DNA of 64,000 bases from Alistipes sp. GTDB lineage: Bacteria; Bacteroidota; Bacteroidia; Bacteroidales; Rikenellaceae. The notes below the pieces were generated by a model. The model was not told the DNA's origin. It ran no database searches and saw only the letters and a list, made by a program, of their open reading frames with translations. Location: positions 38,378 through 102,377 of the forward strand of contig JAZUQP010000002.1 of NCBI GenBank assembly GCA_045605785.1, in the 5' to 3' direction. Positions 14,869 through 60,022 of the stretch are shown here, in pieces. Position 1 is the first letter of the stretch. Every line of letters starts with the position of its first letter. Both the position numbers and the translations under genes were made by a program.

Positions 14869-14944
14869 GATCTCGTAGCTCAGCCGGTAGAGCACAACAC
14901 TTTTAATGTTGGGGTCCTGGGTTCGAGCCCCAGCGGGATCACCA
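14869..14944 (+). tRNA. trnK: tRNA-Lys(UUU)
   Basis: Acceptor GATCTCG/CGGGATC, anticodon arm CAACA-CTTTTAA-TGTTG, GGTTCGAGCC T-arm, encoded CCA. Confidence 0.97.
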
Positions 14945-24766: not shown

Positions 24767-25075
24767 ATGGGTCGCAGCTCAACAGAGGGCCACTTCGGGG
24801 TGGGTCTTATCCTCTTCTCCCTCTCGGCCTTGATGAGTATCCTACTCCTCGTTTCGGCCTTCACGGTGTGGCTCTCGGAGCTGACCGGCTCACTCTTCGT
24901 GGCCATGCTCCTGGTCGGGGGCTTCTTCTTCACGGTGGCGCTGCTGGTCTATCTGCTCTCGTTGCGCTACACTGTTCGACGCATCAACGACCGCCTGGAG
25001 ACCATCTACGATGTCGCCGAATCGGCCAAACGCGGCTACGAATGGGTCGTAGGATTGCTAAAAAGAGCCCTGTAG
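24767..25075 (+). CDS. Two-TM membrane protein (holin-like family, typical YtxH neighbour)
   Basis: Two hydrophobic helices; directly follows YtxH; GTG at 24761 is an alternative start. Confidence 0.6.
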   Translation: MGRSSTEGHFGVGLILFSLSALMSILLLVSAFTVWLSELTGSLFVAMLLVGGFFFTVALLVYLLSLRYTVRRINDRLETIYDVAESAKRGYEWVVGLLKRAL

Positions 25076-25139
25076 AGGCTCTTTTTGCAATTTACGATTC
25101 ACAATTATTTTCTTGACATGGTAATTGGCAGATTAGGGA

Positions 25140-25376
25140 GAGAGGAAATTCCGTGCCAACGAAGATTGCCCCGGATGGGACATACTTGGCGTATTTCCCA
25201 TTCGGGGCAAGCAAGGCGGTGCGTAGTTATCGTTTACAAATCGTAAAACCAGATTTTTGATTTTAGGCGAGGAAATTCCGTGCCGACATGAAATCGGCCC
25301 GGATGGGATATACTTGGTGTATTTCCCATTCGGGCCGATGATTGAGGTGCGGAATTTACCGCCTAAAATCAAAAAT
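25140..25376. repeat. Two tandem ~125-bp hairpin elements (family copies A1, A2)
   Basis: GAGGAAATTCCGTGCC at 25142 and 25269; A2 has a 17-bp terminal inverted repeat ATTTTTGATTTTAGGCG/CGCCTAAAATCAAAAAT (25253-25376). Confidence 0.9.
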
Positions 25377-25927
25377 TACTTGAAGTAGCGGTTAAACAAC
25401 CCCTCAAAACCCTTTCCGTGACGAGCCTCATCCTTGGCCATCTCGTGAACGGTATCGTGTACGGCATCCAGGTTCTGCTCCTTGGCGATTTTGGCCAGGT
25501 GCATCTTACCCTCGCAAGCACCGCACTCGGCATTCATACGCTTCTCGAGGTTGGTCTTGGTATCCCATACCAGCTCACCAATCAGCTCGGCAAACTTGGC
25601 AGCGTGCTCGGCCTCCTCCCATGCGTAGCGCTTGAAGGCCTCGGCAATCTCGGGATAGCCCTCGCGGTCGGCCTGACGGCTCATGGCCAGGTACATACCC
25701 ACCTCGGTGCACTCGCCCAGGAAGTGGTCCTGCAGGCCCTGCCACAGCTCGGGATTCGAGCCCTTACCATCGCCCAACTTGTGCTCGGTAACGAAGTTCA
25801 GGCCGGCGGCCTCCTCCACTACCTCGACAAACTTATCCTTACCAACCTTGCAAAGGGGGCACTTCTCGGGTGCCTCATTACCCTCGTGAATATAACCGCA
25901 TACGGTGCAACGCCATTTCTTGTTCAT
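25376..25927 (-). CDS. rbr: Rubrerythrin with an N-terminal rubredoxin domain (NADH peroxidase type)
   Basis: [39 protein letters not shown]. Confidence 0.93.
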
Positions 25928-53844: not shown

Positions 53845-53847
53845 AAT

Positions 53848-53878
53848 AATTCACGATTCACAATTCAAAATTCAACAT
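53848..53878. repeat. Heptamer tandem repeat (AATTCAC-like)
   Basis: aattcac gattcac aattcaa aattcaa catt. Confidence 0.8.
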
Positions 53879-53919
53879 TGGCCCCTTTGATGATTGGGAT
53901 TTGGGAAATTTAAGGTGTT

Positions 53920-54032
53920 TAGAGGAGCCTATTTGTGCCGACATAAAATTCCCCCGAAAGGGCTGTACTAAAGCGTACTACCCTTTCGGGGGAGTGATTG
54001 AAGGGCAAAATTTGCCCTATAAAATCAACAAA
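53920..54032. repeat. Hairpin element, family copy B
   Basis: Shares GTGCCGACAT.AAAT, TGATTGA.G and AATTT.CC..TAAAATCAA with A2; perfect stem CCCCCGAAAGGG/CCCTTTCGGGGG. Confidence 0.88.
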
Positions 54033-54482
54033 TTATCGGATGCGGTCGAGCGAACGCACCAACAGCTCATCGCGGAGAATCGCTCTCGCAGCCAGCCAAA
54101 CAAAGAGAAGGCAAGCGAGAGGGAGGATGGCGGCAGGCATCAGGGAGCCCTTGTCAAGGGTGTTCTGCGGACCCCAATAGAGCATCGCCTCCATGGCAGC
54201 AACACCAACCAAGAGAACGGCCTCGGCAGCGCAGAGGCGAATCTGAAGCATGCGGCGCTTGTAGAGGAAGAGGGTGATTAAGGGGAGCAGAGTTGCGGCA
54301 CCCATCAGCAGGGAGAAGTAGATGGGGGTATTCCCGATGACCACCCCGTCCACGCGCAGGTTGAGCGCATGAAGCATGACCTGGTTGCCCTCGTGCGAAA
54401 ACCACATGAGCGGCAGGAAGAAACAGAGGGCCATCAGGGCCGTAATAAGGAGGAGCCAAAGGCTCTGAATGCGTTGAATCAT
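54033..54482 (-). CDS. DUF4293 family membrane protein
   Basis: MIQRIQSLWLL, IFLYKRRMLQIRL-like segment, AILRDELLVRSLDRIR. Confidence 0.88.
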   Translation of the reverse strand: MIQRIQSLWLLLITALMALCFFLPLMWFSHEGNQVMLHALNLRVDGVVIGNTPIYFSLLMGAATLLPLITLFLYKRRMLQIRLCAAEAVLLVGVAAMEAMLYWGPQNTLDKGSLMPAAILPLACLLFVWLAARAILRDELLVRSLDRIR

Positions 54483-59444: not shown

Positions 59445-59496
59445 TTCTCGACTGAAAATTTTTGCAAAGATAATAATTTTTTCTACTTTTGTGCCC

Positions 59497-59840
59497 GGGT
59501 AAGTCTTATACGACCAGCTCCTACAGACTCCCCCAGGTGCGGAAGCAAGCAAGGGTATGTGGTTGTAGCGGTGCGATATAAGTAGCTTACCCTTTTTTAT
59601 TTTTGAGTGATAAGGTGGCATTTGCGGCCGCTAACATAAAATCCAACAATGGGCAGTACCAAAAGTACAGCCCATCGTCGTTTTTACGGCCGAGCGTTGC
59701 AACTACCACCTTCTAACTCAAAAATTATTTGCGAGGATTGACGGCATTTGCGGCCGCTAACAATAAATATCGCGAATGGAACATACGCTTAGTATGCTCC
59801 GTCCGCGATTATTTTTGCCGAGCGTAGTGCCAATTCAAAA
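59497..59840. repeat. Tandem hairpin elements (copies C1 59600-59724, C2 ~59735-59840, and a divergent hairpin at 59497-59592)
   Basis: GGCATTTGCGGCCGCTAACA at 59617 and 59743; C1 termini TTTTTGAG/CTCAAAAA flanked by TTA on both sides. Confidence 0.85.
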
Positions 59841-59981
59841 TTTAGAATTTAGAATTCAAAATTGATTCCTTGACGCAAAGGTGTGGGAGGTATGGGAGTT
59901 GCGGGATATTTGCTCCTTGTCTTCCTAATTTCATAAGGTCAAAGAGAATAATTGTGAATCGTGAATTGTGAATTGTGAATT
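59832..59981. repeat. Two heptamer tandem-repeat tracts in opposite orientations
   Basis: aattcaa aatttag aatttag aattcaa (59832-59863); aattgtg aatcgtg aattgtg aattgtg (59950-59981), abutting glgB promoter TATCTTTG (59989-59996). Confidence 0.8.
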
Positions 59982-60022
59982 ATTTTTGTATCTTTGTAGG
60001 AATTGAAAACAACAAACAGACC

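What the first reader, a model, noticed from the sequence alone, without database searches (positions are those of the whole stretch)
25140..25376. Dispersed ~125-bp hairpin element family with a conserved RTAC-N5/6-GTAY apex (locus A, tandem pair; MITE/REPIN-like)
Seen: five copies share GGR-NN-RTAC-loop-GTAY-NN-YCC: 25177 GGG AC ATAC ttggc GTAT TT CCC; 25305 GGG AT ATAC ttggt GTAT TT CCC; 53960 GGG CT GTAC taaagc GTAC TA CCC; 59651 GGG CA GTAC caaaa GTAC AG CCC; 59778 GGA AC ATAC gctta GTAT GC TCC. Each has 1-2 mismatches in the NN step. Stems covary (TTGCCCCG/CGGGGCAA vs ATCGGCCCG/CGGGCCGAT vs TCCCCCG/CGGGGGA). A2, B and C1 all end ..CAA(A/C)AA(A) directly before TTA; in A2 and B that TTA is the stop codon of the neighbouring gene. 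The loci are convergent, tandem and divergent intergenic regions, which argues against a terminator or riboswitch role. Inference: a non-autonomous element selected for single-strand structure, targeting TAA/TTA and mobilised by an enzyme encoded elsewhere.
Basis: partly seen in the sequence, partly recalled or inferred. Interest (0 to 1): 0.72.

Follow-up and report, generated by a model that had tools for sequence, protein, structure and literature searches.

The report
Stop-codon-docked hairpin repeats of Alistipes
The five hairpins are copies of an abundant, apparently undescribed ~125-base DNA repeat of uncultured gut Alistipes bacteria that sits, always in one direction, directly behind the stop codon of ordinary (often highly expressed) genes and has spread by a still unknown, strand-specific mechanism.

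Summary
All five copies are real. They belong to a family of 93 full and 26 partial copies at 66 loci in this 1.95-Mb Alistipes genome assembled from a metagenome. There are three arm types, Ia, Ib and II. All share one apex: GATGGG-NN-RTAC-loop-GTAY-NN-CCCATT, with an invariant G.T wobble and a Y.Y mismatch.

The family occurs only in some Alistipes/Rikenellaceae species. It matches no Rfam family, and I found no paper on it.

New points:
- In 55 of 66 loci the first unit abuts a gene's stop codon in one fixed polarity (chance expectation 1.5). The stop is TAA in 89% of cases. C1/C2 follow the SRP RNA gene instead.
- Orthologous sites in relatives are empty and carry ordinary terminators, or hold other arm types.
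- There is no target duplication.
- Folding is selected on the strand antisense to the gene: G.U cells 151 against 11-14, and strong covariation.
- Polarity is uniform over contigs of 100-400 kb, which suggests a link to replication.
- Y1/RAYT, reverse transcriptase, IS110, integron integrase and Ssn-like GIY-YIG genes do not co-occur with the element.

Best reading: a non-autonomous mobile hairpin element inserted strand-specifically as single-stranded DNA, by an unknown enzyme.

The parts
25140..25249 (-). Unit A1, type Ib inner part with a mismatched outer arm (chimera). It is the second, distal unit of the array behind rubrerythrin. The sense (gene-parallel) strand is '-' and the better-folding strand is '+'.
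   Evidence: nhmmer hit C2:63517-63626; fold -47.7 (+) against -40.8 (-) kcal/mol; arm mismatch seen.
25252..25375 (-). Unit A2, type Ia. It is the proximal unit and starts directly after the rubrerythrin stop codon. In gene sense it reads TAA-TTTTTGATTTTAGGCGG...
   Evidence: fold -67.9 (+) against -53.9 (-) kcal/mol, z -11.2; 98.2% identical to the copy at C18:112714.
25376..25927 (-). Rubrerythrin gene. Its TAA stop (25376-25378) forms the outermost base pairs of the A2 palindrome.
   Evidence: Pfam RUBY_RBDX and Rubrerythrin. The C-terminus ..RYFK* is the same in relatives with and without the element.
25061..25088 (.). Terminator-like bidirectional hairpin (AAAAAGAGCC-CTGTAGA-GGCTCTTTTT) distal to A1. 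It is the likely native end of the rubrerythrin transcript and of the convergent 104-aa gene.
   Evidence: Read from the sequence. The consensus scan did not list it because the T-run is one T short of its threshold.
53909..54032 (-). Unit B, a solo copy with type Ia loop motifs and a GAAAGGG..CCCTTTC apex variant. It starts right after the stop of the DUF4293 gene (TTA at 54033-54035).
   Evidence: fold z -6.7.
59490..59596 (+). Small SRP RNA gene. Its 3' T-run is followed by TA and then unit C1.
   Evidence: Rfam RF04183, 108 bits.
59600..59723 (+). Unit C1, type II. The sense strand is '+' and the better-folding strand is '-'.
   Evidence: fold -44.6 (+) against -56.1 (-) kcal/mol.
59726..59846 (+). 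Unit C2, type II. Its 3' arm is replaced by an AATTCAAAATTTAGAATT repeat array.

Best explanation
The hairpins are copies of a lineage-specific, non-autonomous mobile DNA repeat of about 125 bp. The arm families (Ia, Ib, II and others) share one apex hairpin. The repeat has multiplied in some uncultured Alistipes genomes.

Shown:
- A new unit lies immediately 3' of a gene's stop codon (TAA far more often than TAG or TGA), or after the SRP RNA gene.
- It has one fixed polarity and no target duplication.
- It lies upstream of the native terminator, so it is co-transcribed as 3' untranslated region.
- Units also stack head to tail.
- Polarity is uniform over hundreds of kilobases.
- Base pairing, including G.T and G.A pairs, is conserved on one DNA strand only, the strand antisense to the gene.

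Inferred:
- The unit is handled as a folded single DNA strand.
- A trans-acting protein recognises the conserved, asymmetric apex (G.T wobble plus Y.Y mismatch).
- Insertion is coupled to replication. A TAA exposed on one template strand would be the docking point, which would explain both the gene polarity and the chromosome-scale polarity.
- Selection then keeps only insertions at gene ends.
- This works like IS200/IS605 or attC-type single-strand recombination. The enzyme is unknown and is none of the classes tested.
For: - Copy number and recent spread: 93 full copies at 66 loci. Forty-five copy pairs are >=95% identical behind unrelated genes.
- Patchy distribution: 11 of 25 congeners carry the apex, against 0 of 16 other families of the order. 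A scan of GTDB species genomes hit only Alistipes/Rikenellaceae-type records.
- Independent gains at one site: downstream of rubrerythrin, many species have an ordinary terminator, while G071, G054, G014 and G010 carry different arm types. The protein C-terminus is unchanged.
- Occupancy: of 60 occupied sites in other species that have a clear orthologue in this genome, 43 are empty here.
- Docking: 55 of 66 arrays abut a stop codon in the standard polarity, against 1.5 expected; 41 of the 93 copies lie within -2 to +4 nt, against 0.3 expected. The same rule holds for 93 of 123 copies in other species.
- No flanking duplication.
- Strand asymmetry: the antisense strand folds better in 181 of 198 copies. 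In the sense strand, A.C oppositions number 464 against 39 G.T. G.U cells number 151 on the antisense strand against 11-14 on the sense strand.
- Covariation.
- Chromosome-scale polarity: contigs with 14/14, 10/10, 10/11, 7/7 and 9/10 copies on one strand, although genes are split about 45:55. The sense strand is the G-enriched strand in 35 of 45 arrays.
- No promoter motif reads into the folding strand.
- A terminator-like hairpin lies distal to 26 of 62 arrays, and the unit itself qualifies as one in only 9 of 62.
Against: - No enzyme was found. Y1 transposase occurs in 1 of 61 congeners, and that genome has no elements. RVT_1, IS110 DEDD and Ssn-sized GIY-YIG genes do not co-occur with the element. 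No integron integrase scores above its cut-off. No recurrent nuclease or recombinase gene lies next to or between units.
- These are metagenome-assembled genomes, which often lose insertion sequences, so absence is weaker evidence than it looks.
- By the skew analysis the better-folding strand is the leading-strand template. That is not the strand the IS608 model uses.
- A TAA alone cannot explain the roughly 15-fold or greater preference for stop codons over other intergenic TAAs. Selection, or a longer target, has to be assumed.
- No strain-level insertion polymorphism was seen here. No same-species contigs were available.
Confidence: 0.5

Rival explanations
1. A functional 3'-UTR RNA module. 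On this view the hairpin is kept because, in the mRNA, it blocks 3' exonucleases, serves as an RNase III site or helps end transcripts of highly expressed genes. This is what REP, ERIC, Correia or SPRITE elements do. Copies would spread mainly by recombination and be retained by selection. This rival does not exclude mobility.
For: - Units lie between the stop codon and the native terminator, so they are transcribed with the gene.
- Neighbouring genes are often central or highly expressed: rubrerythrin, MDH, PGK, PEPCK, PFOR, EF-P, S21, L17, RpoC and SRP RNA.
- Occupancy of orthologous sites is shared far more often than chance (17 of 60 against about 5%).
- The sense-strand RNA hairpin is still very stable, about -53 kcal/mol on average.
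Against: - Wobble and G.A pairs are conserved on the strand complementary to the mRNA. In the mRNA they become A.C and Y.Y mismatches.
- There is no U-tract. Only 9 of 62 units score as hairpin plus T-run, and close relatives manage with plain terminators.
- An RNA function does not explain polarity uniform over hundreds of kilobases.
Confidence: 0.2
2. attC-like or CTX-phage-like recombination sites. On this view the folded bottom strand is a substrate of a tyrosine recombinase, either host Xer-type or a diverged one. That enzyme would insert or excise gene-less hairpin cassettes at gene ends.
For: - The units share several features with integron attC sites: imperfect palindromes of about 60-140 bp directly after an ORF, a fixed polarity, structure conserved more than sequence, the folding strand antisense to the ORF, and no duplication.
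- Chimeric copies switch arm type at the apex.
- Every genome encodes Xer-like recombinases.
- From memory: the arrangement of attC bottom strands on the leading-strand template in sedentary integrons.
Against: - No integron integrase scores above its cut-off in 61 genomes.
- There are no RYYYAAC/GTTRRRY core sites.
- The flanking genes are core genes in conserved synteny, not cassettes.
- Loop length varies from 4 to 7 nt.
- The number of Xer-like genes does not track the element.
Confidence: 0.1
3. An ordinary DDE-transposase MITE (IS5, IS630 or Correia/ERIC type) that targets TA, TAA or TTA.
For: - Size about 125 bp, palindromic ends AATTT...AAATT, intergenic location and tandem copies.
- The genome does hold another, classical-looking ~400-bp MITE with 21-bp terminal inverted repeats.
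Against: - There is no target-site duplication at any young copy.
- The termini covary instead of being conserved.
- Polarity towards the gene and the chromosome is strict.
- The part shared between arm families is the apex, not the ends.
Confidence: 0.05
4. A multicopy antisense small-RNA or structured-RNA gene family, transcribed from the better-folding strand.
For: - Invariant G.U pairs, frequent G.A oppositions and rich covariation on that strand.
- Conserved internal-loop motifs such as GACATGAAA//GATTGAG and ACGCTCGGC//GTTAGCGG.
Against: - No Bacteroidetes promoter motif points into the units: 0 full motifs toward the unit against 5 away.
- About 100 copies per genome with patchy presence among species.
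- No terminator follows on that strand.
- No Rfam match.
Confidence: 0.07

Closest known systems
IS200/IS605-family single-strand transposition and its miniature derivatives (PATEs); REP/REPIN elements mobilised by RAYT (Y1 HUH) transposases
   Same: Hairpin-dependent and strand-specific. No target duplication. Docking next to a short fixed sequence in one orientation. Orientation tied to the chromosome arm. High copy number in intergenic DNA. Head-to-tail clusters.
   Different: No Y1 transposase in any of about 20 element-bearing genomes. One long ~55-bp-stem palindrome instead of separate left and right end hairpins, or of 20-40-bp REPs with a GTAG tag. Docking on stop codons. By the skew analysis, the better-folding strand is on the putative leading-strand template.
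Integron attC sites (and CTX-phage attP hairpins used by XerCD)
   Same: Imperfect palindromes of about 60-140 bp directly behind an ORF, in fixed polarity. Structure conserved more than sequence. The folding strand is antisense to the ORF. Mismatches could set the strand choice.
   Different: No integron integrase and no attI. No R''/R' core sites. Units are dispersed behind core housekeeping genes rather than arrayed cassettes. The unit comes and goes while the gene stays.
ERIC/IRU (127 bp), Correia/NEMIS, RUP, BOX and SPRITE small repeats of Enterobacteria, Neisseria and pneumococci
   Same: About 100-150-bp palindromic intergenic repeats that are co-transcribed with neighbouring genes and can affect mRNA ends and stability (from memory and reviews PMC2229807, PMC3184786).
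   Different: Those have conserved terminal inverted repeats and TA duplications, or a terminator-like U-tract (SPRITE), and no strict gene or chromosome polarity. Here the apex is the conserved part, there is no duplication, and placement on the stop codon is exact.
NTS/dRS3 (SRM) hairpin repeats bound and cut by Ssn GIY-YIG single-strand nucleases (PMC11893778)
   Same: Hundreds of strand-specific hairpin repeats around genes, recognised only as single-stranded DNA by a small trans-acting protein.
   Different: The motif is different. The ~95-aa GIY-YIG gene of this genus occurs in many element-free genomes and is missing from several element-rich ones. In this genome it is not flanked by units.

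Membership tests
REP/REPIN with RAYT | A Y1 (IS200-like) RAYT gene is present in genomes that carry the repeats, usually flanked by them. | tested here: not met
   PF01797: 0 hits in the own genome. It occurs in 1 of 61 congeners, and that genome has no elements.
REP/REPIN with RAYT | A 20-40-bp imperfect palindrome carrying a conserved GTAG or CGTC tag at its foot. A REPIN is two inverted REPs. | tested here: not met
   The units are single palindromes of ~125 bp. The conserved block is the apex RTAC-loop-GTAY, and no GTAG/CGTC tag sits at the stem foot.
IS200/IS605-derived miniature elements | No target duplication, and insertion 3' of a short fixed sequence in one orientation. | tested here: met
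   The junction reads stop codon (TAA in 49 of 55) followed directly by the unit. The distal flank is variable and there is no repeat.
IS200/IS605-derived miniature elements | Orientation tied to the direction of replication. | tested here: inconclusive
   Strand use is uniform over contigs of 100-400 kb, and 35 of 45 arrays lie on the G-enriched strand. Origin and terminus were not mapped because the assemblies are fragmented.
IS200/IS605-derived miniature elements | Distinct subterminal left and right hairpins, and a TnpA(Y1) in the lineage. | tested here: not met
   One continuous hairpin. No Y1.
DDE-type MITE (IS5/IS630/Correia/ERIC-like) | Conserved terminal inverted repeats flanked by a direct target duplication (TA, TTA or similar). 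| tested here: not met
   No duplication in the near-identical young copies. The outer 7-bp arms covary, for example TTTCTTG/CAAGAAA, TTTGTCG/CGACAAA and TTTTGAG/CTCAAAA.
Integron attC | An integron integrase (IntI) and attI adjacent to arrays of cassettes. | tested here: not met
   TIGR02249: no hit over the 265-bit cut-off in 61 genomes. The best hits, about 85-118 bits, are Xer-like.
Integron attC | An imperfect palindrome directly 3' of an ORF in fixed polarity, with the bottom strand as the folding strand. | tested here: met
Integron attC | Conserved core sites R'' (RYYYAAC) and R' (GTTRRRY). | tested here: not met
   The termini read (T)AATTTNTTG...CAANAAATT(R), with no AAC/GTT cores.
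Ssn/SRM (NTS) repeats | Co-occurrence with a ~94-aa single-domain GIY-YIG Ssn gene, often flanked by the repeats. | tested here: not met
   A small GIY-YIG gene is present in G000, G008 and G042. It is absent from the element-rich G010, G012, G013 and G014, and present in the element-free G002, G016, G017, G018, G020 and G023.
Intrinsic terminator / SPRITE-like | A G+C-rich hairpin followed by a U-tract on the gene strand. | tested here: not met
   Only 9 of 62 arrays score as hairpin plus T-run. The unit ends in an A-rich ...CAAAAAT(T). Separate terminators lie distal to 26 of 62 arrays.
Retron or other reverse-transcriptase-dependent element | A reverse transcriptase in the genome. | tested here: not met
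   PF00078 is absent from G000, G008, G010, G012, G013, G042, G052, G053 and G071.
Any Rfam RNA family | A covariance-model match at or near the gathering score. | tested here: not met
   At the gathering threshold only SRP RNA and a tRNA are found. At E<=10 only generic hairpin hits of 12-19 bits appear, against cut-offs of 50-200 bits.

The most novel reading that the evidence does not exclude
The units would be a new kind of mobile element that homes to the 3' side of stop codons by a replication-coupled, hairpin-guided single-strand reaction. The enzyme would lie outside the known HUH, reverse transcriptase, DEDD, IntI and Ssn classes. Alternatively, host Xer-type recombinases would act on the folded bottom strand, as with CTX phage and attC. 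The shared asymmetric apex would be the recognition site. The covarying outer arm together with the TAA would form the docking helix.
Probability: 0.25. Interest if true: 0.85.

Novelty: new variant of a known kind. Interest (0 to 1): 0.62.

Why it matters
If the reading holds, Alistipes, a common gut genus, carries a family of selfish or domesticated DNA hairpins with an unusually exact address: the base after the stop codon, in one polarity, on one chromosome strand. No described bacterial repeat family that I could find shows this.

The family offers three things:
- A natural system for studying how single-stranded DNA structures are recognised and inserted without a known transposase.
- A possible source of a new site- and strand-specific DNA enzyme.
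- A practical point for annotation: about 0.6% of such genomes, and the 3' untranslated regions of many highly expressed genes, consist of these units. They break assemblies and may influence mRNA fate.

The mechanism is directly testable, because a cultured isolate (MGBC000073) carries at least 18 copies.

Tried and rejected
- **Rfam:** searched at the gathering threshold and at E<=10. Nothing matched.
- **Enzyme hunts by co-occurrence over 61 congeners:** Y1_Tnp, RVT_1, GIY-YIG/Ssn, IS110 DEDD and integron integrase. None tracks the element.
- **Neighbouring ORFs:** clustering the ORFs around 119 element-bearing loci gave no recurrent enzyme; the largest cluster is a lipoprotein. Genes bracketed by two units showed no nuclease or recombinase.
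- **Same-species strains for an exact empty site:** exact-protein look-up found nothing. The metagenome scan gave at most 87% identical rubrerythrins, so no strain-level comparison was possible.
- **Antisense promoter:** a custom Bacteroidetes -33/-7 scan found none pointing into the units.
- **CCACNACC motif after stops:** tested as a general target context. It is rare, 3 of 1428 gene ends.
- **Raw GC skew as a replication marker:** rejected because coding strands are C-rich at third codon positions. It was replaced by a strand-effect estimate that separates the two.
- **tRNA and tmRNA genes:** only one partial unit lies behind a tRNA-Leu gene.
- **Literature:** three searches found no description of this family.
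- **Not done:** I built no covariance model, because the nhmmer and pattern censuses were already saturating.

Full report
**Observation**

Each caps a long nested hairpin. RNA-fold energies run from -38 to -68 kcal/mol, with z-scores from -2.6 to -11.2 against dinucleotide shuffles.

The window lies in contig C2 of a 1.95-Mb, 40-contig, 94%-complete genome. The genome belongs to uncultured Alistipes: a Bacteroidales-type SRP RNA sits in the window, and every named genome that shares the apex is an Alistipes or Rikenellaceae genome assembled from a metagenome.

- The stricter strand-specific apex GATGGG-NN-RTAC-N4-7-GTAY-NN-CCCATT finds 69, against 0 for the reversed control.
- nhmmer profiles find 93 full and 26 partial copies. 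They lie at 66 loci: 41 solo, 23 doublets and 2 triplets.

Unit limits in the window are A1 25140-25249, A2 25252-25375, B 53909-54032, C1 59600-59723 and C2 59726-59846.

**Anatomy**

Copies fall into arm families that differ in everything except the apex and the A/T-rich termini.

- Type Ia (A2, B) has the loop motifs GACATGAAA//GATTGAG.
- Type Ib (the inner part of A1) has AACGAAG//GCAAGG.
- Type II (C1, C2) has ACGCTCGGC//GTTAGCGG.

The shared apex carries an invariant G.T wobble (GATGGG/CCCATT) and a pyrimidine-pyrimidine mismatch in the NN step, always on the same strand. A1 is a chimera whose two outer arms belong to different subtypes. Other chimeras also switch arm type at the apex.

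Covariation is extensive.

| Alignment | Sequences | Pairs | Pairs with compensatory changes | Cells paired | Shuffled | Slid partners |
|---|---|---|---|---|---|---|
| Type Ia | 32 | 41 | 27 | 96.5% | 76.4% (0/500 as high) | <=48% |
| Type II | 37 | 47 | 30 | 95.2% | 79.4% (0/500 as high) | <=49% |

In one type II subfamily of other species, each arm also pairs with itself (GCCGAGTG..CACTCGGC and GGGGCCG..CGACCCC). A four-way junction is therefore possible there. I read this from the sequences and did not test it statistically.

**Placement**

I oriented every copy by its asymmetric apex and compared it with my own codon-usage-based gene calls. One end of the element faces a gene 3' end in 85 of 93 copies.

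- In 55 of 66 loci the proximal unit lies within -13 to +20 nt of a stop codon in this polarity. Random placement in intergenic DNA gives a mean of 1.5 and a maximum of 6 in 300 trials.
- Forty-one of the 93 copies lie within -2 to +4 nt of a stop, against 0.3 of 66 random placements.
- In gene sense the junction reads ...codon-TAA-TTTTTGATTTTA... for type I and ...TAA-TTTTTGAGTGATAAGG... for type II. The TAA pairs with the distal ...AAATTA/G.
- Adjacent stops are TAA 49, TAG 3 and TGA 3, against 853, 445 and 130 genome-wide.
- The rule holds in other species. In 93 of 123 copies an ORF of at least 80 codons ends 50-100 nt (mostly 61-70 nt) 5' of the apex centre.

In some cases the ORF runs a few codons into the unit and uses its TGA or TAA. 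C1 follows the T-run of the SRP RNA gene, where there is no translation. Docking therefore does not require a ribosome.

No direct repeat flanks any copy, including near-identical young ones.

A terminator-like hairpin plus T-run lies distal to 26 of 62 arrays. The unit itself qualifies as one in only 9 of 62. At locus A the order is rubrerythrin stop, A2, A1, about 50 nt, then a bidirectional terminator-like hairpin at 25061-25088. The units are thus part of the 3' untranslated region.

Neighbouring genes are often central or highly expressed: rubrerythrin, malate dehydrogenase, PGK, PEPCK, PFOR, 2-oxoacid oxidoreductase, EF-P, S21, L17, RpoC and SRP RNA.

**Evidence of gain and loss**

- Forty-five pairs of copies are at least 95% identical over at least 110 nt, while their gene-side flanks are unrelated.
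- The apex occurs in 11 of 25 congeners sampled and in 0 of 16 other families of the order.
- Downstream of rubrerythrin, many Alistipes (G008, G042, G016, G045, G004, G023, G024 and others) have the stop followed by an ordinary GC hairpin and T-run. G071 and G054 carry other type I copies, G014 a type II and G010 another family. In all of them the protein ends ..RYFK*.
- In a wider metagenome sample, 74 rubrerythrin loci mostly show plain terminators. A few further lineages (for example L183/L185, L194 and L202) carry related units with altered apexes.
- Of 60 occupied sites in other species that have a clear orthologue here, 17 are occupied and 43 empty in this genome. Shared occupancy is well above the roughly 5% expected by chance. 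Some gene ends are therefore hot spots, or old insertions persist.

**Which strand matters**

The strand antisense to the adjacent gene folds better in 181 of 198 distinct copies, with means of -64.8 against -53.3 kcal/mol.

On a strand-neutral Watson-Crick skeleton, the sense strand shows 464 A.C/C.A oppositions against 39 G.T/T.G. It also shows many Y.Y oppositions, which are G.A on the other strand. On the two alignments, G.U cells number 151 on the antisense strand against 11 and 14 on the sense strand.

A deamination bias on the exposed non-template strand would produce the opposite pattern. This is my inference. I therefore read the asymmetry as selection for pairing of the antisense strand.

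No Bacteroidetes -33/-7 promoter motif points into that strand from the distal flank: 0 full motifs toward the unit against 5 away. An antisense RNA is therefore unlikely, and a folded single DNA strand is the simplest reading.

**Chromosome-scale polarity**

The strand-specific apex is almost uniform in strand along long contigs.

- G014: 14/14 and 10/10.
- A Rikenellaceae genome assembled from a metagenome: 10/11 and 4/4.
- The cultured isolate MGBC000073: 4/4, plus two contigs with a single switch.
- This genome: 6/6, 9/10, 7/7, 7/7 and 8/9, although genes are split about 45:55 between the strands.

Raw GC skew is confounded here, because coding strands are C-rich at third codon positions. 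After separating that effect, the sense strand of the arrays is the G-enriched strand in 35 of 45 arrays. If the usual rule holds that the leading strand is G-rich, the adjacent genes run with replication and the better-folding strand is the leading-strand template. I tested it here independently.

**Mechanism**

The anatomy combines several features:
- hairpin-dependent and strand-specific;
- no duplication;
- docking 3' of a short fixed sequence;
- polarity tied to the chromosome arm;
- a conserved, asymmetric apex shared by otherwise unrelated arm families, which changes in step across the families within a genome.

This is what single-strand DNA recombination systems look like, namely IS200/IS605, REP/RAYT, attC/IntI, CTX/XerCD and NTS/Ssn. 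A model in which a unit is joined 3' of a TAA exposed on one template strand explains two things with one rule: why only genes of one orientation per chromosome arm are used, and why the unit has a fixed polarity towards the gene. Selection against insertions inside genes and promoters would then enrich for stop codons.

The steps that are shown and those that are inferred are separated in the Best explanation section.

**Weak points**

- No enzyme was found.
- The strong stop-codon preference is not explained by TAA alone.
- The better-folding strand is not the one expected on the lagging-strand template. Sedentary integrons show the same arrangement (from memory).

Tests for known partners were all negative by co-occurrence in 61 congeners: Y1 transposase, reverse transcriptase, Ssn-sized GIY-YIG (paper PMC11893778 read), IS110 and integron integrase. 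No recurrent enzyme gene lies near the units. These are metagenome-assembled genomes, which often lack insertion sequences. Even so, nine or more element-rich genomes agree in each test.

**Comparison and novelty**

The family works most like IS200/IS605-REP or attC-type single-strand elements. In size and co-transcription it resembles ERIC, Correia or SPRITE repeats. It fails the defining tests of each (see the membership table).

Rfam has no model for it, and three full-text searches found no description. Other agents of this scan have met the same family in at least six other Alistipes genomes and reached similar conclusions. I treated these as leads, not as support.

I rate it a new variant of a known kind, the small palindromic intergenic repeats. 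There is a real chance, about one in four, that its mobilisation mechanism is new.

**Limits**

- Gene calls are my own heuristic.
- There are no transcript data.
- No same-species strains were available.
- Replication direction is inferred from skew on fragmented assemblies.

Noticed in passing
window 59826-59870, 53845-53880, 59950-59985, 25095-25115: A/T-rich arrays of 8-9-bp units (AATTCAAAATTTAGAATT..., GTGAATTGTGAATCGTGAATT...) recur next to the hairpin units and in front of genes. In several type II copies, including C2, they replace the 3' arm.
   Followed up: partly
G000 C18:169543-169940 and at least 11 other places (C22, C33, C7, C38, C27, C21, C40, C32, C6, C8); none in the window: A second, classical-looking ~400-bp non-coding repeat with 21-bp terminal inverted repeats (TAATTACTACCGGTGCGATAAA ... 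TTTATTGCATCAATAGTAATT), 84-93% identical between copies. It often lies directly behind a hairpin unit.
   Followed up: partly
G000 C18:112840-113000, C31:16000-16140, C2:108890-109060 (just outside the window): A further module follows many units: GGTGGGGCTGACGACCGAAGTATTT, then inverted arrays of 8-9-mers (GGGAATTAT)n ... (ATATCTCCC)n that would form another long hairpin. The intergenic DNA of this genome is a mosaic of such modules.
   Followed up: no
G000 C18:197113 compared with locus L007: The 'empty' orthologue of a filled site reads TAA-TCT-ACCCCACTACACAAGAAA. This is the exact reverse complement of the filled site's first 8 unit bases joined to its distal flank. It looks like the relic of an inverted or deleted copy.
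   Followed up: partly
G000 C10:24054, C16:191967, C20:72955, C4:36185, C26:4219: Variant units keep the 5' arm and half of the apex but carry a different 3' part (..GGTAAGAGGGGAGGAGCAACGAGACCAAAAAATAGAAGGGTCGTTACGACCCC..) containing a small GGGTCG-TTAC-CGACCC hairpin. They always follow a full unit.
   Followed up: no
G000 C15:46809-47030: A ~95-aa single-domain GIY-YIG gene, the size of an Ssn nuclease. It has no hairpin units nearby, and its distribution in the genus does not follow the element.
   Followed up: yes
window 14869-14941: A tRNA gene (Rfam, 68.8 bits).
   Followed up: no
G000 C33:67829-67993: The only tRNA-linked copy: a partial type II 5' arm lies 34 nt behind a tRNA-Leu gene, co-oriented with it.
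   Followed up: no
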